This document shows positions 1-50,212 of a DNA stretch of 50,820 bases, in pieces. The position numbers were made by a program, and so were the translations under genes. The notes below the pieces were generated by a model. That model worked only from the letters and a program-made list of their open reading frames with translations. It did no database searches and was not told the DNA's origin. The stretch comes from Saprospira grandis DSM 2844 (GTDB taxonomy: Bacteria > Bacteroidota > Bacteroidia > Chitinophagales > Saprospiraceae), in assembly GCF_000275825.1 (NCBI RefSeq), contig NZ_JH719942.1:1124988-1175807 (forward strand). The letters are read 5' to 3'. The stretch's first letter is position 1, and each line of letters begins with the position of its first letter.

Positions 1-124
1 GGCTGAGGGATGGATAGCAGTGGCCCAAAGGGCCAGACCCAGCCGCCTTCGGCGGCGCAGGGCCGAGCAGACCTGCGAGCTGCGACACAGCCCGACCCGC
101 CCGAAGGGCGGGGCAGCCCCAAAA
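1..124 (-). repeat. GC-rich modular intergenic repeat (family A), copy 1, truncated at the window edge, reverse orientation, CATCCCTCAGCC subtype
   Basis: Shares cores gctgagggatgg...ggccgagcagacctgcgagc...cccgacccgcccgaagggcggggcagccccaaaa with the other copies. Confidence 0.8.
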
Positions 125-2463: not shown

Positions 2464-2583
2464 TTTTTGGGGCCTCCCGCCTTTGGCGGGCGCTACGTTT
2501 CGGGGCTCGCTGTTCGCTCGGCCCTGCGCGGGCTGCGCCCGCTTGGTCTGGCCTTCGGCCACCCCTGCACATCGCTAGGCCAA
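2464..2583 (+). repeat. Family A repeat, copy 2 (forward, CATCGCTAGGCC subtype)
   Basis: ttttggggcc...cgctacgtttcggggctcgctgttcgctcggccc...ggtctggccttcggccacc...catcgctaggcc. Confidence 0.8.
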
Positions 2584-3753: not shown

Positions 3754-3827
3754 GCTTCCATAGCTCAGTTGGTTAGAGCATCTGACTGTTAATCAGAGGG
3801 TCCCTGGTTCGAGCCCAGGTGGGAGCG
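3754..3827 (+). tRNA. tRNA-Asn (GTT)
   Basis: Cloverleaf read by eye: acceptor gcttcca/tgggagc, D-arm gctc-agttggtta-gagc, anticodon loop ctGTTaa, T-arm cctgg-ttcgagc-ccagg. CCA is not encoded. Confidence 0.85.
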
Positions 3828-3852
3828 CTACTCATACACAACAATATATTTT

Positions 3853-3926
3853 GCTTCCATAGCTCAGTTGGTTAGAGCATCTGACTGTTAATCAGAGGGT
3901 CCCTGGTTCGAGCCCAGGTGGGAGCG
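3853..3926 (+). tRNA. tRNA-Asn (GTT), identical second copy
   Basis: Exact duplicate of the 3754-3827 sequence, 25 nt downstream. Confidence 0.85.
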
Positions 3927-3930
3927 CAAA

Positions 3931-4817: not shown

Positions 4818-5060
4818 GTGGACAGGCGGCGAAGCCGCCGCAGGCCTAGCGATGCGGAGGGGTGGCCGAAGGCCAGACCGAGCCGCTCTAAGCGGCGAAG
4901 GGCCGAGCAGACCTGCGAGCCCCATAGCGTAGCGCCTGCCGAAGGCAGGAGGCCCCAAAACAGCAGCGAGCCCCATAGCGACAACAAGCCCTTTAGGGCG
5001 CAGTTCGACGACCGCAGGGAGTAACCGCCGACGAGCGAAGCGAGGCAGGAGGCCCCAAAT
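4818..5060 (-). repeat. Family A repeat, copy 3 (reverse; composite/dimeric with optional module X)
   Basis: There are two ggaggccccaaa ends, at 4950-4964 and 5047-5060. It contains gacaacaagccctttagggcgcagttcgacgaccgcagggagtaacc (module X). Confidence 0.8.
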
Positions 5061-5097
5061 AAAAAGGCATCTAGCCGAAGCCAAATGCCTTTATCTC

Positions 5098-6240: not shown

Positions 6241-6336
6241 AGCTTTTTGTTTCCAGATTCTCTCATTTAACAGCCCTTTGGGGCTATGGTTGCCGCAAAG
6301 GTACAACTTTTTTCATCTGTTATTGAAAGTAGGAAT

Positions 6337-6485
6337 CTTTTGGGGCTTCCCCTGCGGCCTTCGGCCTTGGGTCGGGCTCTGTCGCAGCTCGCAAGTTTGC
6401 TCGGCCCTGCAGCGCTTTCAGCGCTTTGGTCTGGCCCTTCGGGCCCCTGCTATCCATCCCTAAGCCGAGTCGCTTCGCTCCTTTT
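6337..6485 (+). repeat. Family A repeat, copy 4 (forward, CATCCCTAAGCC subtype)
   Basis: ttttggggcttcccc...gggtcgggctctgtcgcagctcgcaagtttgctcggccc...ggtctggccc. Confidence 0.8.
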
Positions 6486-10220: not shown

Positions 10221-10390
10221 TTTTTTTGGGGCTGCCCCGCCCTGCAGGCGGGTCGGGCTGTCTCAGGGCTCGCAAGCCTGCTCGGCCCTTCGCAAAAAAG
10301 CTGCGCTTTTTTGCTCGGTCTGGCCCTGCGGGCCACCCTTGCCCATCCCTCAGCCATTAAAAGCTGGCTGCGCCAGCCCCGCCCCAACAA
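10221..10390 (+). repeat. Family A repeat, copy 5 (forward, CATCCCTCAGCC subtype)
   Basis: tttttttggggctgccccgccctgcaggcgggtcgggctg...ctcgcaagcctgctcggccc...ggtctggccctgcgggccacc. Confidence 0.8.
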
Positions 10391-10391
10391 A

Positions 10392-10430
10392 AAAAAGCCG
10401 CAGTTGAATACTCAACTGCGGCTTTTTGCG
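10392..10430. terminator. Bidirectional rho-independent terminator
   Basis: Hairpin gccgcagttga-atact-caactgcggc flanked by an A-run on one side and a T-run on the other. It lies 3' of the minus-strand Fe-S protein gene, whose stop is at 10445. Confidence 0.65.
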
Positions 10431-12019: not shown

Positions 12020-12215
12020 GTGGCCCCGCCGTATTGGCCCAGCGCTGCGAAGGGGTGGCGCAAAGCGCCAGACCCAGGCGCTGAAAGCGCCGCAGGGCCG
12101 AGCAGACCTGCGAGCCCCGACAACAAGGACTTTAGTCCGCAGTTCGACGACCGAAGGGAGTAACCATAGCGGCGGCCGACCTAGGCAAAGCCTAGCCGGC
12201 CGCGGGCCCCAAAAC
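12020..12215 (-). repeat. Family A repeat, copy 6 (reverse; with module X)
   Basis: ggccgagcagacctgcgagccccgacaacaaggactttagtccgcagttcgacgaccgaagggagtaacc...gggccccaaaacc. It ends 10 nt before the protease start codon. Confidence 0.8.
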
Positions 12216-12224
12216 CATCTAATT

Positions 12225-14411
12225 ATGAAAGCGATTTATTTCCTTATTTTTCTGCTGCCTAGCGGCCTCTATGCTCAAAATACGAAGCTAAATATTGACC
12301 TTTTTCGCCTTTGGCAAGAGGGCGGAACCCAAAATGTGGAGCTGATCGTCCAGGGCGAGCCGCAAGCGATAAAAGAACTGGCCCAACAAACCGATAGCCA
12401 GTATAAATATGGCCTAAATGATTTGGCCGCCCTCTCTATTCCCTTGCAAAAACTGCCCATTTGGTGGGAACATCCCGCTATTCTGGGCCTGCAAGCCCAG
12501 CGCCTTAGCCCCCAGTATTTTTTTGAACAAGATAGCCTGATGCTGGCCAATAATAACGCCCGAGCCGCTCATGAAGGCTGGGGATTACCCCAATCTTTTA
12601 AGGGCCAAGGCGTGCTTGTCGGCATTATTGACGACGGCTACGAATGGCAGCATCCCGATTTCTGGCAGCCCAATGATAGCAGCAGCCGATTTCTCAGTAT
12701 TTGGGACCAAGATTATTTTTCGCCCAACTTTTTTATGGGCCAATATGGCTATGGCAGCTACTGGAATAAAGCCCAAATTGATTCGGGCCTGATCGCTCAC
12801 CCCCCAGGCGAACATGGCTCGCATGTGCTAGGTACCGCCGCCGGCAATGGCCTAGCCGCCCAAAAATATAAGGGCATTGCCCCCAAAGCCGAGCTGTTGG
12901 CCGTGGCCCTGAGCGAAGATGGACAGTTTTTGCCCCGCTTTGTGGATGCCGTCCACCATATTTTTCAAGAAGCTAAGCGATTGGGAAAAGCCTGCGCCAT
13001 TAACTCTAGTGTGGGGGCCTATTATGGCTCCCATGATGGTCAAGACTTGTATACGGCTATGATTGAAGCGATGCTAGAGGAGGAAAACGGTCGGGCTTTG
13101 ATTCAAGCAGGCGGCAATGCGCGGCAGGCAAAAATGCACTGGCAAAAGGCCCAAGCAGATAGCGGCTGTCTGGCCTTTTTGCCCCTCAATGGCCAACTAT
13201 TTCGCAGCTCGGCCTTTATTGATAGCAGCGACTGGCCACAGCTGCATTGGCAATTTGAGCTCAAGGGGAGTCAGGGACAAAGGCTGGTTCTTAGTCGCCC
13301 TTTTTCCCCTGCCGATCTGCCGCCGCATAGCCCCCTACCTGCCCAAAGAATAGACACTATATATATAGGTCCACAAGGGGCCCTGATTTTAGTACAATAT
13401 TTGGCCGAATGGCAGGGCTGCCTAGAGTGGTCCTTTCAGCTGCAGGGAAACAATTTGCAAAATCAGCAGCTTTTTTTGCATTGGAGCGGGGCGGGCAAGG
13501 TGGATATTTGGAGCCATGAGCGCAATATGGGCCTTTCGGATATTATTCTGCAGGCCAATGTTCCTCATTACATTGCGCCCGACAACCAACAAACCCTAGC
13601 CGCTTATTGGACCTGCTCGCCCAAGGTCATCACGGTGGCGGCCTACCAAAACCGAGACCAACTGCAGAATTATGCTGGCGATACGGTTTCTTTGGCCTAT
13701 GCGGGCTTTCCGATCTTTGGCATTGCCGATTTTTCTAGCCTCGGCCCTAGTCGAACGGGTCTACAAAAGCCCGATTTAACAGCCCCCGGGGGGCAGGTCC
13801 TTTCGGCAGGCAGCCTGGCCGCCCTACAAAACGCCAGAGCCAACAACTCCCCTTATTTGGACCAAGGCGGTTGGCATGTTTCGGCTAAAGGGACCTCTAT
13901 GGCGGCGCCTATGGTTACGGGGGCCGCTGCCCTCTATTTTCAATGCCAACCGCAGGCCAATTGGGCCGAACTCAAGGCCGCCCTGCTACAATCGGCCCGC
14001 AAAGATGCTTGGGTATATAGTGCTGGCGCTCCGCCCAATATAGATTGGGGAGCGGGTAAGTTAGATGTGCAGGCGCTTTTGCAAAACTGCCTAAAGCCTG
14101 GCTGTCTAGACAGCAACGCCCTCAACTTTATGCCCAACGCTTGGGTAGAAGACGGCTCTTGCTACTACCCTAGTTCCACAAATTATCTGGCCGAGCAAGG
14201 GCCAACGCTCTGGCCCAATCCCTTTAATGGCCAACTACAAATAGAATTGCCTCAGGCGGGCCAGCTTTGCTTTTATAATGTTTTGGGCCAAGAAATGGCT
14301 CGCTATATTTTGCCTGCTGGTCCAAAAACAATTTCTACCGAAGATTGGCCCAAGGGTAGCTACATCTGGAGATGGGAAGATGGACCAAGCGGAAAGCTCA
14401 TTAAGCAGTAA
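12225..14411 (+). CDS. Subtilisin-like S8 serine peptidase with T9SS C-terminal sorting domain
   Basis: Asp/His/Ser catalytic motifs are present (GIIDDGYEW; HGSHVLGTAAG; GTSMAAPMVTGAAAL). The signal peptide is MKAIYFLIFLLPSGLYAQ. The C-terminal region (about 70 aa) is of Por_Secre_tail type. The track ORF start at 12018 runs through a repeat element, so the start is set at 12225. Confidence 0.85.
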   Translation: MKAIYFLIFLLPSGLYAQNTKLNIDLFRLWQEGGTQNVELIVQGEPQAIKELAQQTDSQYKYGLNDLAALSIPLQKLPIWWEHPAILGLQAQRLSPQYFFEQDSLMLANNNARAAHEGWGLPQSFKGQGVLVGIIDDGYEWQHPDFWQPNDSSSRFLSIWDQDYFSPNFFMGQYGYGSYWNKAQIDSGLIAHPPGEHGSHVLGTAAGNGLAAQKYKGIAPKAELLAVALSEDGQFLPRFVDAVHHIFQEAKRLGKACAINSSVGAYYGSHDGQDLYTAMIEAMLEEENGRALIQAGGNARQAKMHWQKAQADSGCLAFLPLNGQLFRSSAFIDSSDWPQLHWQFELKGSQGQRLVLSRPFSPADLPPHSPLPAQRIDTIYIGPQGALILVQYLAEWQGCLEWSFQLQGNNLQNQQLFLHWSGAGKVDIWSHERNMGLSDIILQANVPHYIAPDNQQTLAAYWTCSPKVITVAAYQNRDQLQNYAGDTVSLAYAGFPIFGIADFSSLGPSRTGLQKPDLTAPGGQVLSAGSLAALQNARANNSPYLDQGGWHVSAKGTSMAAPMVTGAAALYFQCQPQANWAELKAALLQSARKDAWVYSAGAPPNIDWGAGKLDVQALLQNCLKPGCLDSNALNFMPNAWVEDGSCYYPSSTNYLAEQGPTLWPNPFNGQLQIELPQAGQLCFYNVLGQEMARYILPAGPKTISTEDWPKGSYIWRWEDGPSGKLIKQ

Positions 14412-15563: not shown

Positions 15564-15610
15564 TACAAATGGTTTACTGAAAAAATAGGTATGTATTTAT
15601 CTAGGAGGGT

Positions 15611-15765
15611 TTTGGGGCTGCCCCTGCGGCCTTCGGCCTGGGGTCGGGCTGTGTCGCAGCTCGCAGGTCTGCTCGGCCCTGCGGCGGCTTTGCCGCCTGG
15701 GTCTGGCCTGCGGCCACTGCTGTCCATCCCTCAGCCTGCGGCCCTTTGGGCCTGTAGGAGGCCGA
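15611..15765 (+). repeat. Family A repeat, copy 7 (forward, CATCCCTCAGCC subtype)
   Basis: Near-consensus copy: ttttggggctgcccctgcggccttcggcctggggtcgggctgtgtcgcagctcgcaggtctgctcggccctgcggcggctttgccgcctgggtctggcctgcggccac. Confidence 0.85.
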
Positions 15766-16462: not shown

Positions 16463-16617
16463 GCAGGGCCGAAGGCCCGCAAAGGAGCGCAGCGACGCGG
16501 CTGAGGGATGGACAAGGGGGGCCGCAGGCCAGACCAAGGCGGCAAAGCCGCCGCAGGGCCGAGCAGACCTGCGAGCCCTGAAACAGCCCGACCCGCCTGA
16601 AAGGCGGGGCAGCCCCA
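16463..16617 (-). repeat. Family A repeat, copy 8 (reverse, CATCCCTCAGCC subtype)
   Basis: Reverse complement of the consensus. It ends gggcggggcagccccaacaaaaaaa, 17 nt before the Smr gene start. Confidence 0.85.
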
Positions 16618-16633
16618 ACAAAAAAATAAAAAG

Positions 16634-21002: not shown

Positions 21003-21818
21003 ATGCTAAAATCCTGGACCTATAAAGAGCAAGGCCTCGATGCCAAAGTAGAACTCTTTTACGATCATGTTCTCTGGACCAAAACGACCGAACAACTTTA
21101 TTTTTCGCTAGAAGAGGCCCTTTGCCGACCGCTTCCCATTGGGCCAAACTGGATTGATGCCGAGCTGATCGACTACCTTCAACAACTACTAAGCGAAAAG
21201 GAACTATCAGAAACAGGCCAACTTATTTTTGCCTTCTATAAGGGCTTGCAAAGCCATAAACTAATAGAACAAAGCTTCTTTTGGCCCAAGGTAGAGGAAA
21301 AACAACTACAGGCCCATTTTTCGGCCCAAGGGCTACTGCTCCTAGAAGAAACCCCCTACCAAATTCTGCCCCTGCAAGCACAAAGACTCTGGCATTTTTA
21401 TCTGCATGGAAGCAATATTCCCGGCCTGCCCTTTAAGGAAAGAAGACTTTGGAGCGACCAAATTAAACAACAGCTCCGCTGGCCCCAACTGGCCGCCCCT
21501 TTTGCCTTGCTCGACTATAGCCGCCTGCCCAAAAAACGCTACGAGGCCCAAGACGAAAATAATGAGCTCCATTTCCTTTGGCTAGAAGATGATTTTGCCC
21601 GAATTGGACAAGGACGAGGCAGCCAAAGCCGTAGCCAAAAACGAAGCTACGAACAGTTGCTCCGAGAAGGCACAAATGGCCTGCCCAACTGCCTAGCCGC
21701 CTATTGGCCCATGCTCTACAAACTGCTCCAAAGGATGTATATTCGAGGCCAAATGCCTAGCTATAAAGAATCAACTCCCTATGAAGGTCCCGCCCCCGGA
21801 CAAGCCCCTCCTGCCTGA
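21003..21818 (+). CDS. Hypothetical protein
   Basis: This ORF begins right after the previous stop, at MLKSWTYKEQ. It has no recognisable domain. Confidence 0.5.
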   Translation: MLKSWTYKEQGLDAKVELFYDHVLWTKTTEQLYFSLEEALCRPLPIGPNWIDAELIDYLQQLLSEKELSETGQLIFAFYKGLQSHKLIEQSFFWPKVEEKQLQAHFSAQGLLLLEETPYQILPLQAQRLWHFYLHGSNIPGLPFKERRLWSDQIKQQLRWPQLAAPFALLDYSRLPKKRYEAQDENNELHFLWLEDDFARIGQGRGSQSRSQKRSYEQLLREGTNGLPNCLAAYWPMLYKLLQRMYIRGQMPSYKESTPYEGPAPGQAPPA

Positions 21819-21832
21819 TTTTTTCTAGGCGT

Positions 21833-21990
21833 TTTTTTGGGGCTGCCCCTTCGCTTCGCTGCGGGTCGGGCCATTTCGCAGCTCGCAGGTCTGCTCGGCC
21901 CTTCGGCGCTTGCAGCGCCTCGGTCTGCCGCCTGCGGCGGCCCTGCTACAGCCCCTCAGCCGATAGGCTGGGGCTCCGCCCCAGCCCCAT
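21833..21990 (+). repeat. Family A repeat, copy 9 (forward)
   Basis: tttttttggggctgcccc...gggtcgggccatttcgcagctcgcaggtctgctcggccc...ggtctgccgcctgcggcggccc. Confidence 0.8.
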
Positions 21991-23137: not shown

Positions 23138-23280
23138 AGGCGCGAAGCGCCTGGCCTAGCGATGCGGCGGGGTGGCCCGAAGGGCCAGACCAAGCAGGCT
23201 TTGCCTGCGAAGGGCCGAGCAGACCTGCGAGCCCCAAAGCGTAGCGCAGCAAGGCGAAGCCGCAGCTGAGGCCCCAAAAC
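23138..23280 (-). repeat. Family A repeat, copy 10 (reverse, CATCGCTAGGCC subtype)
   Basis: ggcctagcgatgcggcggggtggcccgaagggccagacc...gggccgagcagacctgcgagcccc...gaggccccaaaac. Confidence 0.8.
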
Positions 23281-26726: not shown

Positions 26727-26762
26727 ATCCCGCTAGTCATCATGACTAGGGGGATATTTTTT
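26727..26762 (+). terminator. Rho-independent terminator of the nuclease-helicase gene
   Basis: The hairpin cccgctagtcat/catgactaggggg is followed by atattttttt, which runs directly into the TTTTTGGGGCC start of a repeat element. Confidence 0.65.
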
Positions 26763-26905
26763 TGGGGCCTGCCGCCTTTGGCGGCCGGGCCCTTACAGGG
26801 CTCGCAGTTCTGCTCGGCCCTGCGTCGCCTTCGGCTCCTTGGTCTGGCCTGCGGCCACCCTTACAGGCCCCTAGGCCGTTTGGCCTTCGGCCATAGGGCG
26901 GCTTA
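26754..26905 (+). repeat. Family A repeat, copy 11 (forward, CATCGCTAGGCC-like subtype)
   Basis: tttttttggggcctgccgcctttggcggcc...ctcgcagttctgctcggccc...ggtctggcctgcggccaccc...ggccgtttggccttcggcc. Confidence 0.8.
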
Positions 26906-26939
26906 GCTATGCTATTCGGTCTTTGTAGAACAATCGAGA

Positions 26940-27088
26940 CTGTTTAAAGTTTTCTGTTTCTCCTTTTTGCTGCCTAGAAACAAGCCCCTAGACTCGCTTT
27001 TTTAGACAGCCCTCTAAAGAGGGCCTTTGGAGAAGGTTCTTCTCTGCGATAACAACTGAACAAGGCCCAGTATATCAACAGTTGAGGC
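26940..27088. repeat. Second repeat family (element B), copy 1
   Basis: About 85% identical to 38858..39008: gtttaaagttttctgtttctcctttttgctgcctagaaacaagcccctagactcgc...cagacagccctctaaagagggcctttgga...aacaactgaacaaggcc...tatatcaacagttgaggc. Confidence 0.7.
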
Positions 27089-27297: not shown

Positions 27298-27420
27298 CGG
27301 CCTAGCGATGCGGAAGGGGGCGGCGAAGCCGCAGACCAAGGCCGTCAGGCCGCAGGGCCGAGCAGCCTTGCGAGCCCTGCAGCGTAGCGCCTGCCGCAGG
27401 CAGGAGGCCCCAAAACAAAA
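27298..27420 (-). repeat. Family A repeat, copy 12 (reverse, CATCGCTAGGCC subtype, short)
   Basis: ggcctagcgatgcggaagggggcggcgaagccgcagaccaaggccgtcaggccgcagggccgagcagccttgcgagccc...ggaggccccaaaac. Confidence 0.8.
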
Positions 27421-27472
27421 AAGGCCAGCCCCAGAGGAGCTGACCTTCGTCAGTAGTTAGTTAGCTAAGTCA

Positions 27473-30400
27473 TTAAGGCTTAACGACTTCAAAGTTCAGT
27501 TGGCTTTGCACGGCCTCGATATGAACATTGAGGTAATAAGTACCTGCGGGTAGGTTTTGGATAGCATCTAGGGTAATGAGGTCGCCGGGGCGGACTGTTT
27601 GGCTGCTGCTAAAGACCTGGCGGCCAAGCACATCTAGGAGTTTGAAATTCACTTTACTGCTAGTTTTGAGCTGGCTAAAGCGGATATTCACAAAATCGCT
27701 AGCGGGATTCGGGAAGACTGAAATATCGACACTTTCGGCTTCTGTATTATTTACTGCGCGGACTTCAGAGTACTCAAAGTCTCCGTTGAAATCGACTTGT
27801 CGTAGGCGGTAGTAAGTAGTATTCTCGTAGCTATTGTTATCGGTATAGCTATAGTAATTGGTTGTAGTGCTATTACCTTGACCTTGGACAAAATCGATTT
27901 GGCTAAAGTCGGTTTCATAGTCAAACATGCGTTCTACCTCAAAGCCTTGGTTATCTCTTTCTGTTTCGCTGGCCCAAGAGAGGAGCACTGTAGAAGAAGA
28001 CTGGCGTTCGGCATTGAAGAAGAGCCATTCGATGGGGAAATCGACATAAGTATTGGCATCGCGCCAGTCATTATCGTCGAGTCCGTCATTGTTGGGAGTT
28101 GGAGCGGTAGTACCGAGAGCGCTACCATTCACATTATCGTCGAAGATATCGGCGAGGCCATCATTATCGGCATCGATCCAGAAAGGAGAGTTAGGATCGA
28201 GGAAAGGAGGTGTTTGGTTATTGGTATAGCCATTTCCGTTGAGGTTATCTAGCCAATCGGGTAGGCCATCTCCATCGCTATCGGGATTGGGATAGTGAGC
28301 GGGATTACCGCCGTTGGCGACATAGGCTGCGGCCATTTGGATAATTTCGTCGGCGGCATTGCCATCGCCGGCGGTGGCGGTACCGAAGCCATTATCGAAG
28401 CCTTCGGCCCAGTCATAGCCGCTATCATTATCAGCATCGAGATCTAGATAATCTGCGGGAGCGCTGCCGTCATTATTATCCTCATTGGGCGTAGCGCCGA
28501 TATTTGCGCCTGTAGTTTGGTTAGCGGCATCTAGGCCTTCGTAGATATCGAGTACTCCGTTACCGTTAGCATCGGTGCCAGAAGGCGTCATGCCGAAGGT
28601 GGGGCAAGTAGAGCAAACGGCTTCTAGATAATCTGGAATACCGTCATTATCGGCATCGATATCATAGAGGTCGGCAATACCGTCGGCATCTGTATCCAAG
28701 AGATTGATAGTTCCATTTTGGAGGTCAGACCAGCCGTCGCCATTAGCGTCGGTAATGGGACCATCTTCAATTTGGCCATCGAGGGTACCGTTGCTGGGAG
28801 AATCGGTATTAGCGGCTCCGGTTACTGCGCCTGCTGCGGCTTCGACTACATCTGTAATTCCGTCATTATCGCTATCGAGATCGAGGAAATTGGGAGTAGC
28901 GTCGGCATCTGCGTTAGCATTTGGATAGCTATCGGGAGTGCCATCATTGTTATTGTCGGCGCCAGTCAAGATGAGTACGGCAGCGCTATTATCGGCGGTA
29001 CCATCATTATTGGGGTCACCGTCTAGGGCATCGGCAAAGCCATCGCCATCGGCATCGGTAAATGTATCTACGCGGCCATTGCCATCGGCATCGGTTCCAG
29101 CAGCTTCCAAGATATCTTGGATTCCATCGTTATCGCTATCGAGGTCATAGATATTGAGGAGGCCATCGGCATCGAAATCGCCATTGGGGTAAGTATCGGC
29201 TTGGCCGTCGTTGTTACTATCGGTTCCGGTAAGGATAAGAGCTTGAGCGCTATTCTCGGCGGTACCGTCATTTCCGACATCGCCATCGAGGATATCATGC
29301 AGGCCGTCGTTATCGGTATCGACAAAGTCGTCGGCAAAACCGTCTCCGTTGGTATCGGTTCCGCCAGCTTCTACCACATCGGCGATACCATCATTATCGC
29401 TATCGAGGTCATAGATATTGAGGAGACCGTCGTTATCTGCGTCGCCATTGGGATAATTATCGGGGGCACCGTCATTATTGACATCATTGCCTGTAAGGAT
29501 AAGAGCTTGAGCGCTATTCTCGGTGGTACCGTCGTTTCCGACATCGCCATCGAGGACATCATGCAGGCCGTCATTATCGGTATCGCTGAAATTATCGGCT
29601 AGGCCATCTCCGTTCGTATCGGTTCCGCCGGCTTCTACCAGATCGGTAATACCGTCATTATCGCTATCGAGGTCTAGTTGGTTGGGGATACCGTCACCAT
29701 CGACATCATTGTTAGGATAGCTATCAGCTAGGCCATCATTATTATTATCGGCGCCAGTAAGTTGGAGCGCATTAGCGGTATTTTCGGCGGTACCATCGTT
29801 TCCGACATCGCCATCAACAGCATCATGAAAACCATCGCCATCGGTATCGACAAAGTTATCGATTCGGCCATCGCCATCGGCATCAGTTCCGCCGGCTTCT
29901 ACGGCATCAGGAATACCGTCATTATCGCTATCGAGGTCATAGATATCTAAGATACCGTCAGCGTCAGAATCACCATTAAGATAACTATCGGCTAGGCCAT
30001 CATTATTATTATCGGCGCCAGTAAGTTGGAGCGCATTAGCGGTATTTTCTGCTGTGCCATCATTTCCTACATCCCCATCGACGACATCATGAAAGCCATC
30101 GCCATCGGTATCTGTAAAAGCATCTATTTGGCCATTACCGTCAGTATCTTCACCTCCAATTTCTACTAAATCAGGAATACCATCATTATCAGAATCTAGA
30201 TCTAAGCTATTCGGAATACCATCATTATCAGAATCTAAACCAGTAATTAAATTCCCGGCAGTACCGGTACCAATATAACTAACCTCCATATTAGAGATAC
30301 AAGAGGCCACTCCAGAGCAAAGAGATGGGTCTACATCTGTAGTTGTATTCATAATTATAACAACAACACCGTCGTCATTAGCGGTATTCCAAGAAGCAGT

Positions 30401-32491
30401 AGGAATACTAATAGGATTCATATCCATAGCAGGACTACCACAATTTGCATAAGCAGTATTGCTAGAATTTTGACGATTAAAAGGGCCTAAGATAGTTCCA
30501 TCCTCTAACTCTAGCGTAAAACTAGCGGCATCTGTGCCATAAGCACCCGACAAAGAAAAGGACAAAGAGGGAGCTACTGCTACATCTAAAGTATTGACAC
30601 TAAAACTAAGTGTATGGCTAGGCCCAACAGTATTCCGGCATTCATCTGAATAAGTTGCAGTAGATGCTCCACCAATCTCATCATCATAGATATCAACTAA
30701 ACCATCGCCATCTATATCTAGATCAGAGTCAACTTGGCCATCACCATCAGTATCAACTCCGCCAGCCTCTACAATATCTGGAATACCATCATTATCGGCA
30801 TCTAAGTCTACATGATCGGGAGAACCATCACCATCGGCATCAAAATTAGCACAAACACTATTAGAGATACCAGAGCAATAAGGAAAATCTACATCAGAAT
30901 AATTTGGGACACCATCGCCATCTAAGTCTCCAGAAGGATCTGGCAGACCATCTGCACAGTCCCAACCATTTACTCCCGCAAAAACATCTGCGCAGAAATT
31001 GGGATCAGCATAATCTGGTGTACCATCGCCATCATGATCTCCATTATAGATTTCTACAATATCCAGAACGCCATCATTGTCATCATCAATATCACAGGCA
31101 CTCAAAAGGTTATCTTCATCAATTTCTGTAGTATAGTTGGGGTTCTGAATAGGTACATATAAAGAAACAGATCCACCAGCAGTTCCATCAACTGATCCAT
31201 TTCTAGCACCATTAGTATGTTCACCTCCAGCACCACCATCAGAAATAAAAGTAAGATTGGTAGGTATAGAAGCCAGAGAGTATAACAAGGCTCCGCCACC
31301 GCCGCCACCACCTGGTCCATGCTCATTCGTGGTATTCAAATTTTGACCATCTCCTCCAGATACATTTACACTTAACAAGCCTTCATAAACTTGTGTTTTA
31401 AGAACAACGCTACCTCCAGCGCCTCCTCCGCCACCACCATCTGGGGCACCCACAGGATTTACAGCCACAGGAGTGGTCCCTCGAACATTGATAGTGTAGC
31501 CGTTTCCAACAATCGTATCCGCAAAAACAATTACAATTCCACCACCATCAGCAGCAGAAGAAGGGTTATTTGTAGATACCCAACCAGGTCCACCAGCACC
31601 ACCCAAGAACACTTTATCTTGAGCAAGATAGCTGTTTAAAGCAGCTCCACCTATACCTCCAGCAGGATCAACTTTATTGCACCAACGATTACCTCCATTT
31701 CCACCTTCACCATAGTTACTTCCGCCTCCTCCTCCAGAGTCACCAGAAGCACCAGAACCACCACCATTGGCCCGCTTTCCACGTCCATGGTTGGTAGCTG
31801 GATCATCTACAACAATACCACTCCCTTTTTCCCATGCTTCAATAGCTGTATTTGGTAGCGTATATTGAAGAGTTGGATCAATGGTACAGTTGTCTGGGCT
31901 TCCATTAACCGTCATTTGAATACCTTGATACCCCTTTCCTAAAAGATCAATATCCGCATTCAATACCAATTTATCCGTCACCAAGGCCAAAACCCCACCA
32001 ACACCATTCGTCTCACTCCAATCTTGAGCCGTCAAAGTAGAGTTGACCTCCACTACATTGTTTCCATAATCTGGAATCCGCACAACTTGCACCACTCCAG
32101 TTACATCATAATTCCGAATCAATGAATATTTAGGCGTCAATACATTTCCGGTAATACTCCCAATTTCAAAAAATTCATAGTTACCCGCCTCGTTAATATT
32201 CAAAATATCTCCTGAAGCAGATGTATTCGTCACATCTATATCCGCTCCCTTCATCTGAATAATCAAGGCCTTATCCCCAGCTGCAAAAGCCGAAGGGTCT
32301 TGCACCGTAATAGTATGCGCACAGGCCTGATCACAGGGATCGCATACGGGTAAATTTAACGATGTTACTGCCGTATAGTCATTGATAATCCCCCCAATGC
32401 TCACCTGAGCAATGGCAGAGCCCCCATACAACAAACAGAAAGCAAGGACAAAAACTGCCCTCCTTAAGTAGTTTGTAATTTTCACGTTCAT
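27473..32491 (-). CDS. Giant secreted calcium-binding repeat adhesin (thrombospondin type-3 repeats) with T9SS C-terminal sorting domain
   Basis: 1672 aa. It has a signal peptide, Gly-rich segments, more than 20 DxDxDGxxDxxD/DNDGIPD repeats and a C-terminal Por_Secre_tail (VFPNPASDFVNIRF...). The internal DNA units of about 270 bp are near-identical. Confidence 0.85.
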   Translation of the reverse strand: MNVKITNYLRRAVFVLAFCLLYGGSAIAQVSIGGIINDYTAVTSLNLPVCDPCDQACAHTITVQDPSAFAAGDKALIIQMKGADIDVTNTSASGDILNINEAGNYEFFEIGSITGNVLTPKYSLIRNYDVTGVVQVVRIPDYGNNVVEVNSTLTAQDWSETNGVGGVLALVTDKLVLNADIDLLGKGYQGIQMTVNGSPDNCTIDPTLQYTLPNTAIEAWEKGSGIVVDDPATNHGRGKRANGGGSGASGDSGGGGGSNYGEGGNGGNRWCNKVDPAGGIGGAALNSYLAQDKVFLGGAGGPGWVSTNNPSSAADGGGIVIVFADTIVGNGYTINVRGTTPVAVNPVGAPDGGGGGGAGGSVVLKTQVYEGLLSVNVSGGDGQNLNTTNEHGPGGGGGGGALLYSLASIPTNLTFISDGGAGGEHTNGARNGSVDGTAGGSVSLYVPIQNPNYTTEIDEDNLLSACDIDDDNDGVLDIVEIYNGDHDGDGTPDYADPNFCADVFAGVNGWDCADGLPDPSGDLDGDGVPNYSDVDFPYCSGISNSVCANFDADGDGSPDHVDLDADNDGIPDIVEAGGVDTDGDGQVDSDLDIDGDGLVDIYDDEIGGASTATYSDECRNTVGPSHTLSFSVNTLDVAVAPSLSFSLSGAYGTDAASFTLELEDGTILGPFNRQNSSNTAYANCGSPAMDMNPISIPTASWNTANDDGVVVIIMNTTTDVDPSLCSGVASCISNMEVSYIGTGTAGNLITGLDSDNDGIPNSLDLDSDNDGIPDLVEIGGEDTDGNGQIDAFTDTDGDGFHDVVDGDVGNDGTAENTANALQLTGADNNNDGLADSYLNGDSDADGILDIYDLDSDNDGIPDAVEAGGTDADGDGRIDNFVDTDGDGFHDAVDGDVGNDGTAENTANALQLTGADNNNDGLADSYPNNDVDGDGIPNQLDLDSDNDGITDLVEAGGTDTNGDGLADNFSDTDNDGLHDVLDGDVGNDGTTENSAQALILTGNDVNNDGAPDNYPNGDADNDGLLNIYDLDSDNDGIADVVEAGGTDTNGDGFADDFVDTDNDGLHDILDGDVGNDGTAENSAQALILTGTDSNNDGQADTYPNGDFDADGLLNIYDLDSDNDGIQDILEAAGTDADGNGRVDTFTDADGDGFADALDGDPNNDGTADNSAAVLILTGADNNNDGTPDSYPNANADADATPNFLDLDSDNDGITDVVEAAAGAVTGAANTDSPSNGTLDGQIEDGPITDANGDGWSDLQNGTINLLDTDADGIADLYDIDADNDGIPDYLEAVCSTCPTFGMTPSGTDANGNGVLDIYEGLDAANQTTGANIGATPNEDNNDGSAPADYLDLDADNDSGYDWAEGFDNGFGTATAGDGNAADEIIQMAAAYVANGGNPAHYPNPDSDGDGLPDWLDNLNGNGYTNNQTPPFLDPNSPFWIDADNDGLADIFDDNVNGSALGTTAPTPNNDGLDDNDWRDANTYVDFPIEWLFFNAERQSSSTVLLSWASETERDNQGFEVERMFDYETDFSQIDFVQGQGNSTTTNYYSYTDNNSYENTTYYRLRQVDFNGDFEYSEVRAVNNTEAESVDISVFPNPASDFVNIRFSQLKTSSKVNFKLLDVLGRQVFSSSQTVRPGDLITLDAIQNLPAGTYYLNVHIEAVQSQLNFEVVKP

Positions 32492-32536: not shown

Positions 32537-32690
32537 TTTTTGGGGCTGCCCCGCCCTGCGGGCGGGTCGGGCTGTGTCGCAGCTCGCTACTCGCTCGGCC
32601 CTGCAGCAGCAAAGCTGCTTGGGTCTGCCGCCTTCGGCGGCCCTGCTTTCCATCCCTCAGCCAGTCGCTTCGCTCCTTAAAGAATAACTC
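32537..32690 (+). repeat. Family A repeat, copy 13 (forward, CATCCCTCAGCC subtype)
   Basis: ttttggggctgccccgccctgcgggcgggtcgggctgtgtcgcagctcgctactcgctcggccc... It lies 46 nt upstream of the adhesin start codon. Confidence 0.85.
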
Positions 32691-35171: not shown

Positions 35172-35358
35172 TCAGGGCGGGCCGAAGGCCCGCCGGCCTA
35201 GCGATGTGCAGCAGTGCGGCGCAGCCGCAGACCAAGGCCGTCAGGCCGCAGGGCCGAGCGAGTAGCGAGCTGCGAAACGACAACAAGGTCTTTAGACCGC
35301 AGTTCGACGACCGAAGGGAGTAACCGCCGACGACCGAAGGGAGGCGGAGGCCCCAAAT
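35172..35358 (-). repeat. Family A repeat, copy 14 (reverse; with module X)
   Basis: ggcctagcgatgtgcagc...gggccgagcgagtagcgagctgcgaaacgacaacaaggtctttagaccgcagttcgacgaccgaagggagtaaccgcc...ggaggccccaaat. Confidence 0.8.
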
Positions 35359-36629: not shown

Positions 36630-37043
36630 ATGTCTATTCAACATCATTCTATTGCTCTTCAGGCCAAAAACCGAGGATTCCACCTCATTACCACAGAGGT
36701 TTTGCAGCAATTGCCCAAACTTCCCCAAAATGGCCTTTTTCAACTCTTTATTCAACATACTTCGGCTGGCCTGACGATCAACGAGAATGCCGACCCCGAT
36801 GTCCGTATGGATTTTGAAACGATTTTCAACCGCCTGGTCCCCGAAAACCAACAAGGCCTCTTGCATACCCTAGAAGGCCCCGACGATATGCCCGCCCACA
36901 TTAAAACCGCTTTCACAGGCACAAGTTTAAGTATTCCCATTATTCAAGGCCAACTCGCCCTAGGAACTTGGCAGGGGCTCTATCTTTGCGAGTTTAGAAA
37001 CTATGGTGGCCGCCGAAAACTGATCGCTACAATTATAGATTAG
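36630..37043 (+). CDS. YjbQ-family protein (UPF0047, secondary thiamine-phosphate synthase-like)
   Basis: 137 aa, typical of YjbQ family members (TSAGLTINENADPDVRMDFE...). Confidence 0.8.
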   Translation: MSIQHHSIALQAKNRGFHLITTEVLQQLPKLPQNGLFQLFIQHTSAGLTINENADPDVRMDFETIFNRLVPENQQGLLHTLEGPDDMPAHIKTAFTGTSLSIPIIQGQLALGTWQGLYLCEFRNYGGRRKLIATIID

Positions 37044-37045
37044 GA

Positions 37046-37190
37046 TTTGGGGCCTCCGCCTCGCTGCGCTCGTCGGCGCTACGCTTTGGGGCTCGCAGGT
37101 CTGCTCGGCCCTTCGCCAGCAAGCTGGCTCGGTCTGGCCTAACGGCCACCCCACCGCATCGCTAGGCCAGGCTGGCCTTCGGCCAGCCTT
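37046..37190 (+). repeat. Family A repeat, copy 15 (forward, CATCGCTAGGCC subtype)
   Basis: ttggggcctccgcc...cgctacgctttggggctcgcaggtctgctcggccc...ggtctggcctaacggccacc...catcgctaggccaggctggccttcggccagcc. Confidence 0.8.
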
Positions 37191-38788: not shown

Positions 38789-38857
38789 TATAAGGCCTTG
38801 CTCCTTAGTAGAATATTAGATGATCCCCTCCTCGGAGGGGATTTGAGCCTGTTTAAA

Positions 38858-39050
38858 ATTTTGTGTTTCTCCTTTTTGCTGCCTAGGGACAAGCCCCTAG
38901 GCTAGCTTTTTCAGACAGCCCTCTAAAGAGGGCCTTTGGATGAGGTTTTTCTCTGTGACAACAACTGAACAAGGCCTTGTATATCAATAGTTGAGGCCCT
39001 CGCAGAGGGCTGACTCCATTGGATTAGCCTAGGGGCTTGTCCCTGGGCGA
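38858..39050. repeat. Second repeat family (element B), copy 2, with 21-bp terminal inverted repeats
   Basis: About 85% identical to 26940..27088. The internal inverted repeat is ctgcctagggacaagcccctaggct ... agcctaggggcttgtccctgg. There are internal hairpins (gccctctaaagagggc; gccctcgcagagggc). Confidence 0.7.
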
Positions 39051-39137
39051 CTATTGGCCAAATCCCAACAAGCTAAAGGCCCAAATTTTATTCTAATACA
39101 CAAAATCCTGAACAGTCCCAGGGATTTTTTTTGTGCC

Positions 39138-39484
39138 CTATTCGACAGAGATCAAACAGCTCATCAAAGTCTTGATGCCCTATTCGACAGAGATCTAATA
39201 CCCCATCAAAGGCTTGATGCCCTATTCGACAGAGATCTAATACCCCATCAAAGGCTTGATGCCCTAGTTGACAGAGATCAAACAGCCCATCAAAGGCTTG
39301 ATGCCCTAGTTGACAGAGATCTAATACCCCATAAAAGGCTTGATGCCCTAGTTGACAGAGATCAAATACCCTATAAAAGGCTTGATGCCCTAGTTGACAG
39401 AGATCAAATACCCCATCAAAGGCTTGATGCCCTATTCGACAGAGATCTAACAGCTCATCAAAGGCTTGATGCCCTAGTTGGTCC
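39138..39484. repeat. 42-bp tandem repeat array (8 full units plus a partial unit), frame-preserving
   Basis: The units begin at 39138, 39180, 39222, 39264, 39306, 39348, 39390 and 39432. Consensus: ctaKtYgacagagatcWaaYaSCYcatMaaaGKcttgatgcc. There are no interspersed unique spacers. Confidence 0.9.
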
Positions 39485-39520
39485 AAAAACAAAAGGGGCT
39501 GCTCGATATCGAGCAGCCCC
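39480..39520 (-). terminator. Rho-independent terminator downstream of the outer-membrane protein gene
   Basis: The perfect palindrome ggggctgctcgatatcgagcagcccc is followed on the minus strand by ttttgtttttgg. Confidence 0.7.
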
Positions 39521-39543
39521 TTTGCAGCAGGTCCTAAGTCATC

Positions 39544-41258: not shown

Positions 41259-41420
41259 GGACAGGCGGCGAAGCCGCCGCAAAGGAGCGCAGCGACGCGG
41301 CTGAGGGATGGAGAGGGTGGCCCGCAGGGCCAGACCGAAGCGCTTTAGCGCTGAAGGGCCGAGCAGACCTGCGAGCCCGGAACAGCCCGACCCGCCCGCA
41401 GGGCGGGGCAGCCCCAAAAA
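41259..41420 (-). repeat. Family A repeat, copy 16 (reverse, CATCCCTCAGCC subtype)
   Basis: gacaggcggcgaagccgccgc...gctgagggatgg...gggccgagcagacctgcgagcccgg...gggcggggcagccccaaaaaaa. Confidence 0.85.
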
Positions 41421-44669: not shown

Positions 44670-44832
44670 TTTTGGGGCCTCCGCAGCAAAGCTGCGGCGC
44701 TACGCTTTGGGGCTCGCAAGTCTGCTCGGCCCTTCGTTTTTCGCTACGCTCAAAAACTCGGTCTGGCCTTCGGCCACCCCGCCGCATCGCTAGGCCAGAT
44801 GGCCTACGGCCAAGGCGGCTTTGCCGCCTTCT
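44670..44832 (+). repeat. Family A repeat, copy 17 (forward, CATCGCTAGGCC subtype)
   Basis: ttttggggcctccgcagcaaagctgcggcgctacgctttggggctcgcaagtctgctcggccc...ggtctggccttcggccacc...catcgctaggccagatggcctacggcc. Confidence 0.8.
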
Positions 44833-45772: not shown

Positions 45773-45889
45773 GGCCTAGCGATGTGCAAGGGTGGCCGTC
45801 AGGCCAGACCGAGGCGCAAAGCGCCGAAGGGCCGAGCAGGCCTGCGAGCCCTGGAACGTAGCGCCTGCCGAAGGCAGGAGGCCCCAAAA
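45773..45889 (-). repeat. Family A repeat, copy 18 (reverse, short, CATCGCTAGGCC subtype)
   Basis: ggcctagcgatgtgcaagggtggccgtcaggccagacc...gggccgagcaggcctgcgagccc...ggaggccccaaaaa. Confidence 0.8.
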
Positions 45890-49912: not shown

Positions 49913-49965
49913 GATTATTTTCTTTTAGTCGCCGCAAAAATAGCCTTTTTCTTTGAAATAATAAT

Positions 49966-50212
49966 TTTTTGGGGCCTCCGCTGCGGCCTGCGGCCTTGCG
50001 GCGGTTACTCCCTTTGGTCGTCGAACTGCGCCCTAAAGGGCTTGTTGTCGCTTTGCAGCTCGCTGAGGTTTTGGGGCCTCCGCTGCGGCCTGCGGCCTTG
50101 CGGCGCTACGTTTCGCAGCTCGCTACTCGCTCGGCCCTGCGGCCTGACGGCCTGGGTCTGCGGCTGCGCCGCACTGCTGCACATCGCTAGGCCGAATGGC
50201 CTTCGGCCATTT
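49966..50212 (+). repeat. Family A repeat, copy 19 (forward dimer; first unit carries module X, second is the CATCGCTAGGCC subtype)
   Basis: Two ttttggggcctccgctgcggcctgcggccttgcggcg heads, at about 49968 and 50079. The first is followed by the complement of module X (ggttactccctttggtcgtcgaactgcgccctaaagggcttgttgtcg). Confidence 0.8.

What the first reader, a model, noticed from the sequence alone, without database searches (positions are those of the whole stretch)
12020..12227. The T-rich GGGGC end of the repeats often sits 10-60 nt from start codons, and its T-tract can double as a terminator U-tract
In at least ten cases the TTTTGGGGC end (or GCCCCAAAA on the other strand) lies immediately upstream of a start codon. 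These are uvrC at 161, the SpoU gene at 2451, the protease at 12225 (10 nt), the Smr gene at 16634 (17 nt), the racemase-like gene at 15563, the nuclease-helicase at 23319, the adhesin at 32491, the radical-SAM gene at 6240, tsaB at 45715 and the ABC-F gene at 49912. The elements therefore occupy promoter and 5'UTR space, and if transcribed they would place stable hairpins near ribosome-binding sites. Elsewhere (26727-26762, and the 21818-21840 junction) a terminator hairpin of the upstream gene is immediately followed by the element's T-run, so the element may supply the U-tract. The elements may influence both transcription termination and translation initiation of flanking genes.
Basis: inference. 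Interest (0 to 1): 0.6.

Follow-up and report, generated by a model that had tools for sequence, protein, structure and literature searches.

The report
Abundant structured intergenic repeat in Saprospira
TTTTGGGGC is one end of a hairpin-rich repeat of about 125-230 bases that fills a third of the intergenic DNA in Saprospira grandis, and it faces start and stop codons equally often, so its closeness to start codons reflects tight gene spacing, not a start-codon-specific design.

Summary
The motif is real: 19 exact copies against about 2 expected, and 17 of them are the 5' end of a GC-rich multi-hairpin repeat. The window holds 19 such elements. They make up 5.2% of the window and 33% of its intergenic DNA. 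The organism is Saprospira grandis DSM 2844.

The tsaB case is wrong: the other end faces tsaB. Across 40 elements (window plus a 50-kb plasmid sample), the T-rich end faces a start codon 21 times and a stop codon 18 times. Between same-direction genes the orientation is 12:12. So there is no start-codon or transcription-direction bias.

One asymmetry is real. The T end sits closer to whichever gene it faces (median 39 vs 102 nt for starts). Paired elements always point their T ends outward (7 of 7).

Four strong terminator hairpins run directly into an element T-run. The 21818-21840 case is weak.

The elements occupy the same sites in four Saprospira genomes. They keep eight helices through double substitutions. 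They are predicted to fold on themselves and leave start codons open.

This is a new family of the REP/ERIC/BIME kind. A regulatory role is untested.

The parts
12036..12214 (-). Focal element E6, a long form. The T/A end is at 12214 and the GGCC end at 12036.
   Evidence: nhmmer and covariance model (85 bits). Present at the same site in three other genomes.
12120..12162 (-). Extra internal module of about 43 nt inside E6 (GTTACTCC..GGTCGTCGAACTGCG..CTAAAG..CTTGTTGT). Absent from the orthologous element in CCB-QB6 and CP110854.
   Evidence: Three-way alignment. The same module occurs in E3, E14 and E19.
12225..14411 (+). S8 protease gene. Its ATG lies 10 nt after the element's AAAA.
   Evidence: 100% identical to EJF52665.1, 728 aa.
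1..124 (-). E1. T end is 36 nt from the uvrC start.
2465..2581 (+). E2. T end is 13 nt from the SpoU start; GGCC end is 60 nt from the PfkB stop.
   Evidence: Module content differs in each strain.
4843..5059 (-). E3, a composite (partial unit plus full unit). T end is 38 nt from the radical-SAM stop; GGCC end is 42 nt from the hyp279 start.
6338..6466 (+). E4. T end is 97 nt from the radical-SAM start.
   Evidence: A -7-like box at 6296-6303 lies between the element and the start.
10224..10355 (+). E5. T end is 107 nt from the start of a 60-aa gene.
10356..10391 (-). Mini-element (T-run, GGGGC and first hairpin only). It abuts the GGCC end of E5, and its T-run continues the Fer4 terminator tail.
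15610..15736 (+). E7. T end is 46 nt from the racemase-like start.
16499..16621 (-). E8. T end is 12 nt from the DUF2027/Smr start.
21835..21959 (+). E9. T end is 16 nt after the hyp271 stop, preceded only by a weak hairpin.
23153..23279 (-). E10. T end is 39 nt from the helicase start.
26728..26755 (+). Helicase terminator hairpin. It is followed by ATATTTTTTT, which runs into the GGGGC of E11.
   Evidence: Fold: centroid -20.6 kcal/mol, z -3.85.
26760..26877 (+). E11. T end faces the helicase stop.
   Evidence: Kept in CP110854, which lacks the adhesin gene.
27299..27415 (-). E12. T end faces the adhesin stop. Together E11 and E12 form a pair with T ends outward.
27420..27448 (-). Adhesin terminator hairpin. 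Its T6GT4 tail runs into E12.
5063..5092 (-). Radical-SAM terminator hairpin. Its T5AT3 tail runs into E3.
   Evidence: z -4.5
32538..32662 (+). E13. T end is 46 nt from the adhesin start.
35195..35357 (-). E14, a long form. T end is 74 nt from the CobAT stop; GGCC end is 53 nt from the OmpA start.
37046..37168 (+). E15. T end is 2 nt after the YjbQ stop. This fusion arose from a DSM 2844-specific deletion between two GATTTGGG repeats.
41299..41419 (-). E16. T end is 10 nt from the TPR-protein stop.
44670..44796 (+). E17. T end is 90 nt from the TPR-protein start.
45773..45889 (-). E18. The GGCC end faces the tsaB start (57 nt) and the T end faces the rpsA stop (91 nt).
49967..50193 (+). E19, a composite. 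T end is 54 nt from the ABC-F start.
   Evidence: A -7-like box at 49935-49942 lies between the element and the start.

Best explanation
TTTTGGGGC is the intrinsic 5' terminus of a family of non-coding, GC-rich, multi-hairpin mosaic repeats of the REP/BIME/ERIC kind. Basic units are about 120-135 nt, and composites reach about 230 nt. They sit in most longer intergenic regions of the Saprospira grandis chromosome and plasmid, about one per 2.6 kb.

Shown:
- The unit has eight helices: a terminal helix, two further long-range helices and local hairpins. These surround an invariant, mostly unpaired core, GCTCGCAGGTCTGCTCGGCCC.
- The elements are old residents. They occupy the same sites in four Saprospira genomes.
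- They change mainly by double substitutions and block replacement of hairpins that keep Watson-Crick pairing.
- They lie in either orientation with respect to flanking genes, with equal frequency.

Inferred:
- Closeness of the T end to start codons follows from compact intergenic regions, where a 125-nt insert leaves only tens of bases on each side.
- The T/A-run end is also tolerated right against gene boundaries, next to stop codons as much as start codons. The GGCC end carries extra trailing hairpins and keeps more distance.
- A preference for settling beside existing T-tracts, in fixed polarity, would explain three things together: terminator tails on one strand, adenine-rich leaders on the other, and pairs with T ends pointing outward.
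- In operons and ahead of very close start codons the element must be co-transcribed. It is predicted to fold as a self-contained domain that leaves the initiation region open.
- Any effect on termination or translation is therefore incidental and specific to each locus, not the purpose of the element.
For: Motif enrichment. Family definition by repeats, nhmmer and covariance model: 19 elements in the window and 21 in 50 kb of plasmid NC_016936.

Structure. 97.9% of cells are paired, with 355 double-change cells against 110 in shuffles (0 of 500). Slid controls give 29-61% paired.

Same sites in CCB-QB6, CP110854 and strain Lewin.

Ortholog-by-ortholog comparison gives 70 and 32 double changes that keep pairing, against 9 and 4 single breaks, with no WC-to-GU change.

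Divergence of the elements is about that of other intergenic DNA and below that of third codon positions.

Orientation and distance statistics: 21:18, 20:18, 12:12; medians 39 vs 102 nt; pairs 7 of 7.

TTTT is kept at the internal junctions of composites, so it belongs to the unit.

Terminator hairpins abut the T-run. Start-region accessibility is unchanged.

No match in Rfam, phages, IMG/VR or E. coli genomes.
Against: - All testable sites are retained in four genomes, although third-codon identity is only 0.75-0.87.
- The non-hairpin parts of the elements are more conserved than other intergenic DNA (0.862 vs 0.812).
- A 21-nt core is invariant across Saprospiraceae and Lewinellaceae.
- These three points suggest selection to keep the elements, meaning some host function this explanation does not name.
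- The T end is significantly the tighter end, and pairs are always T-out. Pure chance placement does not predict this.
- No empty site was found, so mobility, element boundaries and the origin of the T-run are all inferred.
- The sample is 40 elements from about 100 kb, not the whole genome.
- The structure counts were made on an alignment fitted to the model.
Confidence: 0.6

Rival explanations
1. The elements are cis-regulatory modules. The T-rich end is placed near start codons so that stable hairpins modulate translation initiation, and the T-run completes intrinsic terminators of upstream genes.
For: - Eleven of 19 window elements have the T end facing a start codon, eight of them within 10-60 nt.
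- The T end lies within 60 nt of a start far more often than the GGCC end.
- At 26728-26763 the hairpin is followed by ATA and then T7, of which about 4 T belong to the element.
- Known repeats such as ERIC and Correia do alter mRNA stability or processing (PMC2229807).
Against: - No start-versus-stop preference (21:18) and 12:12 orientation in tandem intergenic regions.
- Both orientations alternate inside the pur and paa operons.
- The predicted start-codon region is not less accessible.
- Only about 2% of S. grandis genes use Shine-Dalgarno sequences.
- Most adjoining terminators have their own 5-8 U.
- Some elements lie between a terminator and the next promoter-like box, as E18 does.
Confidence: 0.12
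2. Polar, T-tract-directed insertion. The element proper starts at GGGGC. It was inserted by a single-strand or site-specific mechanism immediately 3' of pre-existing T-runs. This is why it abuts terminator tails and, on the other strand, adenine-rich leaders. This resembles the way IS200/IS605-derived elements insert 3' of a short target.
For: - The T end is the tight end (median 6 nt from stops in tandem regions, 39 nt from starts).
- Pairs are always T-out, 7 of 7.
- Five terminator tails run into elements.
- No classical terminal inverted repeat or duplication is evident.
- Loops are strand-asymmetric (TTC 21, TGC 17 and TTT 10, against GAA 1). They read as GNA triloops closed by C-G on the A-end strand, a very stable single-strand DNA hairpin class (PMC13037366, PMC3201870).
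Against: - T3-4 is kept at the internal junctions of composites and directly after stop codons inside operons, so it travels with the unit.
- There is no strand bias: 10 plus and 9 minus in the window, 11 and 10 on the plasmid. Lagging-strand single-strand transposition would give one.
- No insertion polymorphism was seen in four genomes, and no transposase was found in any locus examined.
- The stop-codon fusion at E15 arose by a local deletion, not by insertion.
Confidence: 0.15
3. Host-maintained structural punctuation. The elements are kept by selection as orientation-independent DNA or RNA structures. They could be binding sites for a conserved protein on the invariant core, or barriers against mRNA decay between cistrons, as proposed for REP/BIME. 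Gene-end proximity would then be part of their role.
For: - Sites are retained in four genomes.
- Linker sequence is more conserved than other intergenic DNA.
- Pairing is preserved by 102 double changes against 13 single breaks.
- The 21-nt core is shared across families of Saprospirales, and the whole architecture is detectable there at 27-81 bits.
- Density is very high: 33% of intergenic DNA.
Against: - No partner protein is known, and there are no expression data.
- Module content at one site can differ greatly between strains. The E2 site holds 119 nt, about 60 nt or about 330 nt.
- Gene conversion among many copies could preserve both sequence and pairing without any function.
Confidence: 0.13

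Closest known systems
ERIC / IRU repeats of enterobacteria
   Same: Size of about 127 nt. Intergenic, in either orientation, and co-transcribed with flanking genes. Folds into a long interrupted stem. Longer forms arise from internal insertions at fixed points. Effects on mRNA depend on orientation (PMC2229807; the insertion variants are from my own knowledge of Wilson and Sharp 2006).
   Different: No sequence similarity. The Saprospira element is a branched multi-hairpin fold with an invariant unpaired core. It is far denser (about 1 per 2.6 kb). No TA termini or target duplication were seen.
REP / BIME (REPIN) elements with RAYT transposases
   Same: GC-rich extragenic palindromes at very high copy number. 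Mosaic, modular arrangement. Pairs in inverted orientation. Often located just after terminators and between operon genes. Compensated stems. One subfamily has GTAG 4-5 nt 5' of a hairpin on the A-end strand.
   Different: A REP is a single palindrome of 20-40 nt, whereas this is a unit of 120-135 nt with eight helices. No RAYT gene was found in about 200 kb examined. Paired elements lie 110-420 nt apart, not adjacent. GTAG is absent from the other subfamily.
Correia / NEMIS elements of Neisseria
   Same: Two size classes that differ by an internal segment of about 50 nt. Sit next to genes, become part of transcripts, and can affect expression (PMC2229807).
   Different: Correia elements have 24-bp terminal inverted repeats, TA duplication and clear presence/absence polymorphism. 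None of these was found here.
BOX elements of Streptococcus pneumoniae (my own knowledge)
   Same: Modular composition, with modules that vary in number between loci. Intergenic and strongly folded.
   Different: Unrelated sequence and host, and different module logic. Not tested here.
Rho-independent terminators
   Same: A GC-rich hairpin next to a T-run. Four strong terminator hairpins share their T tail with an element.
   Different: In the element the T-run comes before the hairpins, not after them. So the element alone is not a terminator in that orientation, and in the other orientation it ends in an A-run.

Membership tests
Bacterial MITE (Correia/ERIC/RUP type) | Terminal inverted repeats | tested here: inconclusive
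   Only a 5-bp terminal complement (GGCYK...MRGCC), plus two further short long-range helices that covary. This is not a contiguous inverted repeat of 7-24 bp.
Bacterial MITE (Correia/ERIC/RUP type) | Target-site duplication, often TA | tested here: inconclusive
   No empty site is available. The flanks show a T-run on one side and often CCTTT after the trailing hairpin on the other, with no consistent direct repeat.
Bacterial MITE (Correia/ERIC/RUP type) | Presence/absence polymorphism between strains (evidence of mobility) | tested here: not met
   E2-E19 are present at the same sites in CCB-QB6. E3-E10 and E16-E19 are also there in strain Lewin. Only E12 and E13 are missing in CP110854, together with the whole adhesin gene.
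Bacterial MITE (Correia/ERIC/RUP type) | A related autonomous insertion sequence with the same ends | not testable with these tools
   The whole genome was not available. No transposase was seen in the loci fetched.
REP/BIME with RAYT | Single imperfect palindrome of 20-40 nt with a conserved GTAG/GTGG at its 5' side | tested here: not met
   The unit is 120-135 nt with eight helices. GTAG occurs next to hairpin 1 in only one subfamily.
REP/BIME with RAYT | An associated RAYT (Y1 transposase) gene flanked by the repeats | not testable with these tools
   Needs a whole-genome protein search. None was found among the annotated genes of the loci seen.
ERIC/IRU | Sequence similarity to the ERIC consensus | tested here: not met
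   No blastn match in 5,426 E. coli genomes.
IS200/IS605-derived elements (PATE) | Insertion 3' of a fixed short target, subterminal hairpins, no inverted repeats or duplication | tested here: inconclusive
   A T-run always precedes GGGGC and there are many hairpins. But the T-run is also kept at internal junctions of composites.
IS200/IS605-derived elements (PATE) | Orientation bias linked to the replication strand | tested here: not met
   10 plus and 9 minus in the window; 11 plus and 10 minus on the plasmid.
Intrinsic terminator | GC-rich hairpin followed by a U-tract on the transcribed strand | tested here: not met
   For the element itself, the T-run is 5' of the hairpins. The feature is met only by separate upstream hairpins at 26728, 5063, 27420 and 10392.
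Any Rfam RNA family | Score at or above the family's gathering threshold | tested here: not met
   Only two tRNA-Asn genes reach threshold. Nothing was found on the elements even at E<=1.
Independent small-RNA gene | Own promoter and terminator in a fixed position | tested here: not met
   The Bacteroidetes -7 box TAnnTTTG fits the T end in only 2-3 of 19 copies, and there is no consistent terminator. The promoter consensus is from my own knowledge.

The most novel reading that the evidence does not exclude
The elements are not decayed mobile DNA. They are a host-maintained structured domain conserved across the order: a branched fold around the invariant 21-nt core GCTCGCAGGTCTGCTCGGCCC. The domain is kept at fixed intergenic positions at about one per 2.6 kb, and each copy carries an almost unique set of perfectly paired GC hairpins. 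The hairpins would be renewed by templated double changes, either hairpin-guided repair or conversion. The domain would act as genome-wide punctuation for a still unknown protein, or for mRNA processing. The adenine run at its end would supply part of the adenine-rich leader that Bacteroidota use in place of Shine-Dalgarno sequences.
Probability: 0.15. Interest if true: 0.7.

Novelty: new member of a known kind. Interest (0 to 1): 0.35.

Why it matters
- **Scale:** about a third of the intergenic DNA in this window, and probably more than a thousand sites in the genome, is one repeat family.
- **Annotation errors:** the family distorts gene calls. In strain Lewin, reading frames are extended into elements (protease 782 vs 728 aa), and many spurious small genes are called over them.
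- **Assembly breaks:** short-read contigs end at these repeats.
- **Transcripts:** the elements must be part of many transcripts.
- **Future tests:** knowing that their orientation is neutral with respect to genes keeps regulatory over-interpretation in check. It also points to the tests that would count.
- **Unusual evolution:** sites are fixed, hairpins are replaced as perfectly paired blocks, G-U intermediates are absent, and the core is shared across Saprospirales. This makes the family a good system for studying concerted evolution or hairpin-templated mutation in bacterial repeats.

Tried and rejected
- **Rfam.** Searched at gathering thresholds and at E<=1 over several elements; nothing found.
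- **Other collections.** Phage records, IMG/VR and E. coli genomes gave no match.
- **Literature.** Searches for Saprospira with REP or MITE returned no papers.
- **Hypervariable hairpins.** My first impression was that the hairpins are hypervariable. I rejected this: stems diverge at about the general intergenic rate and more slowly than third codon positions.
- **Small-RNA genes.** Rejected: there is no consistent promoter box at the T end and orientation is mixed.
- **Adhesin indel by recombination between E11 and E13.** Rejected: CP110854 keeps an intact E11.
- **Empty sites.** I looked in three other genomes to fix the boundaries and the origin of the T-run. None was found.
- **Single-sequence folding.** Z-scores are weak (-0.6 to -2.5) because GC-rich shuffles also fold well. 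Covariation was used instead.
- **Extending the DSM 2844 sequence.** Exact-protein look-ups returned only short contigs that break at the repeats.
- **Sigma-70 promoter scan.** Not informative for this phylum.
Full report
**What is at the coordinates**

Window 12020-12227 reads, on the plus strand, as a GC-rich multi-hairpin sequence that ends ...GGGCCCCAAAA. Then come CCATCTAATT and ATG at 12225. The gene is an S8 protease, 100% identical to EJF52665.1 of Saprospira grandis DSM 2844. Its annotated length of 728 aa fixes that ATG as the start.

**The motif and the family**

TTTTGGGGC occurs 19 times against 1.99 expected, and 0 of 100 shuffles reach 19. Seventeen of these are the 5' end of a repeat unit, read T-first. 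The hits at 16955 (inside a gene) and 47934 are unrelated.

Repeat finding, nhmmer and a covariance model all give the same 19 element loci in the window. The layout of a unit is:
- TTTTGGGGC, then hairpin 1;
- a linker in two variants;
- the core GCTCGCAGGTCTGCTCGGCCC;
- hairpin 2, then GGTCTG, then hairpin 3;
- ...CATCSCTMRGCC, usually followed by a small trailing hairpin.

Basic units are 117-132 nt. Four loci (E3, E6, E14, E19) are longer, 163-227 nt, because they carry an extra module of about 45 nt or a partial tandem unit.

The elements sum to 2,638 nt. That is 5.2% of the window and 33% of its 8,022 intergenic bases. None lies inside a gene.

TTTT belongs to the unit. It is kept at the internal junctions of the composites, as GTTTTGGGGCC.

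**Position relative to genes**

I built a gene map with starts checked against annotated orthologues. In the window the T end faces a start codon in 11 elements and a stop codon in 8.

| T end faces | Gene and gap (nt) |
|---|---|
| Start codon | uvrC 36, SpoU 13, radical-SAM 97, a 60-aa gene 107, protease 10, racemase-like 46, DUF2027/Smr 12, helicase 39, adhesin 46, TPR protein 90, ABC-F 54 |
| Stop codon | radical-SAM 38, hyp271 16, helicase 57, adhesin 57, CobAT 74, YjbQ 2, TPR protein 10, rpsA 91 |

The tsaB case is wrong: the GGCC end faces tsaB.

For an independent sample I used the 54.9-kb plasmid of S. grandis strain Lewin. It carries 21 elements in its first 50 kb, many of them between genes of the pur and paa operons.

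Pooled over both samples:
- The T end faces start:stop 21:18 (p=0.75).
- The GGCC end faces start:stop 20:18.
- In regions between same-direction genes, orientation relative to transcription is 12:12.

So there is no start-codon preference and no preferred transcribed strand. The two orientations alternate inside the operons.

**A real asymmetry**

The T end is closer to whichever gene end it faces:
- Facing starts, the median is 39 vs 102 nt (p=6e-4, or 0.012 after subtracting 25 nt for the trailing hairpin).
- Facing stops in tandem regions, the median is 6 vs 35 nt.

When two elements share a region they are always arranged with GGCC ends inward and T ends outward. This holds in 7 of 7 pairs. 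Three of the plasmid pairs look like copies of one larger composite, so there are about five independent cases.

At least one stop-codon fusion (YjbQ-E15) arose from a DSM 2844-specific deletion between two GATTTGGG repeats, not from an insertion.

**Terminators**

Strong hairpins followed by T-runs that continue straight into GGGGC are present at four places:
- 26728-26755 (helicase);
- 5063-5092 (radical-SAM);
- 27420-27448 (adhesin);
- 10392-10427 (Fer4), which runs into a mini-element at 10356-10391.

The hairpin at 21812-21831 is weak (z -1.6). The rpsA terminator has its own tail, 20 nt before E18. Most of these terminators carry 5-8 U before the element's T3-4. Only at 26756-26763, and at the weak 21832-21838 site, would the element's T's make up most of the tract.

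Read T-first, the element has its T-run before the hairpins, so it is not itself a terminator.

**Is the element in transcripts, and does it mask start codons?**

Gaps of 6-14 nt between the A-run and the start codon cannot hold a promoter. This applies to the protease, SpoU, DUF2027, and the plasmid genes purC, purN and paaB. Those genes must be transcribed through the element. This is an inference from geometry.

In other cases a Bacteroidetes-type -7 box (TAnnTTTG; the consensus is from my own knowledge) lies between the element and the start. This is seen for radical-SAM, ABC-F and tsaB. For the adhesin and the TPR protein, the box lies upstream of the element.

The partition-function unpaired probability of -20..+10 was:

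| Upstream context | Unpaired probability | Genes |
|---|---|---|
| A end upstream | 0.63 | 18 |
| GGCC end upstream | 0.53 | 15 |
| No element | 0.54 | 24 |

The element folds on itself and leaves the start region open.

S. grandis is listed among organisms with about 2% Shine-Dalgarno genes. Bacteroidota rely instead on upstream adenines (PMC10783764). So occlusion of a ribosome-binding site is not the right model. If anything, the A-run is compatible with initiation.

**Structure**

RNAalifold on 17 units predicts eight helices, 17 of 29 pairs showing compensatory changes. I then counted pairs on 68 distinct sequences aligned to the model:
- 97.9% of cells pair.
- 355 cells carry changes on both sides, against 110 in shuffles (0 of 500).
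- Sliding the partner columns drops pairing to 29-61%.

The caveat is that this alignment was fitted to the model.

Three long-range helices covary independently: GGCUG/CAGCC vs GGCCU/AGGCC vs GGCUU/AAGCC; GG/CC vs GC/GC; GCAG/CUGC vs GGGG/CCCC vs AGGG/CCCU.

G-U pairs are almost absent apart from one invariant G-U. GC-to-CG flips are common.

Hairpin loops are strand-specific: TTC 21, TGC 17 and TTT 10, against GAA 1. On the A-end strand they read as GAA/GCA triloops closed by C-G. This is the very stable single-strand DNA mini-hairpin class (PMC13037366, PMC3201870).

Stems are very diverse. Among the 19 window copies there are 16, 16 and 12 distinct versions of hairpins 1, 2 and 3.

**Evolution**

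Syntenic DNA was fetched from Saprospira sp. CCB-QB6, S. grandis CP110854 and strain Lewin.

Every testable element sits at the same site in those genomes. The only exception is E12/E13, which are absent from CP110854 together with the whole adhesin gene. No empty site was found.

Identity to the window:

| Class | CP110854 | CCB-QB6 |
|---|---|---|
| Third codon positions | 0.871 | 0.746 |
| Other intergenic DNA | 0.920 | 0.812 |
| Element stems | 0.928 | 0.810 |
| Element loops | 0.839 | 0.692 |
| Rest of element | 0.902 | 0.862 |

The elements are therefore old and are not hypervariable.

Comparing orthologue with orthologue, 70 (CCB-QB6) and 32 (CP110854) base pairs changed on both sides and stayed Watson-Crick. 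Only 9 and 4 changed on one side and broke, and none became G-U. Whole hairpins and modules are replaced between strains. The E2 site, for example, holds 119 nt, about 60 nt or about 330 nt in the three genomes.

I infer block replacement by conversion among copies, hairpin-templated correction, or both.

**Wider distribution**

The exact 21-nt core occurs in Lewinellaceae and other Saprospiraceae genomes, inside elements of the same architecture (27-81 bits with the Saprospira model). One further hit, in a coding region of a gammaproteobacterial genome, looks like chance. The Lewinellaceae versions lack the T-run.

**Comparison with known systems**

In kind this is closest to ERIC, REP/BIME, Correia and BOX repeats (PMC2229807). 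It shares no sequence with them. It lacks demonstrable inverted-repeat termini, target duplication and insertion polymorphism. It also differs in its branched fold and invariant core.

I found no description of it in the searchable literature.

**Verdict**

Its regulatory reading is a plausible local side effect, not a design.

Noticed in passing
window 39050-39553: A tandem array of a 42-nt unit (about 12 copies) lies in the convergent intergenic region between hyp296 and the TonB-dependent-receptor-like gene. The orthologous gap in the other strains is only about 180-290 nt.
   Followed up: no
window 26936-27088 and 38845-38997: A second, unrelated dispersed repeat of about 153 nt, 90% identical between its two copies. 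Both copies lie in convergent intergenic regions. No Rfam match.
   Followed up: partly
window 12120-12162, 4990-5035, 35280-35327, 50005-50050 (approximate): A module of about 45 nt (GTTACTCC..GGTCGTCGAACTGCG-[variable stem CTAAAG]-CTTGTTGT) sits inside some elements and is polymorphic between strains. In E6 it is present only in DSM 2844. The E2 site has 0, 1 or 3 copies in the three genomes. It behaves like a separately inserted or deleted piece.
   Followed up: partly
L014 and L015, at the position of window 14424; L014 next to the E7 orthologue: CCB-QB6 and CP110854 carry a tandem array with a period of about 44 nt after the protease gene. DSM 2844 lacks it. CCB-QB6 also has an insert of about 190 nt with AGATTTAA...TTAAATCT ends beside E7.
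   Followed up: no
L022 and L024 (strain Lewin), compared with window 12225 and 41226: The original Lewin annotation extends reading frames into the elements (protease 782 vs 728 aa; receptor-like protein 631 vs 560 aa). It also calls many 35-90-aa genes over them. In CCB-QB6 an OmpA-like gene appears extended through an element (726 vs 677 aa).
   Followed up: partly
window 27473-32491: A 1,672-aa adhesin-like gene with internal 264-nt repeats. It is absent from S. grandis CP110854, together with elements E12 and E13, and is much larger (2,451 aa) in CCB-QB6.
   Followed up: partly
window 37041-37053; L016, L017: The fusion of the YjbQ stop codon to element E15 (TAG-GATTTGGGGCC) arose in DSM 2844 by deletion of about 105-135 nt between two GATTTGGG repeats. 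The deleted piece in the other strains belongs to yet another small repeat family (CTGTAGGTTRAAACCTACAG...GAGGGTTWAAACCCTCA), which is also seen after E11 in CP110854.
   Followed up: partly
window 3754-3828 and 3853-3927: Two identical tRNA-Asn(GTT) genes lie in tandem. Strain Lewin has a DUF3800 gene in this neighbourhood.
   Followed up: no
L011-L013, L020, L023: Short-read assemblies of Saprospira break exactly at these elements, giving contigs of 2-4 kb bounded by them. The family therefore limits assembly of this genus.
   Followed up: no
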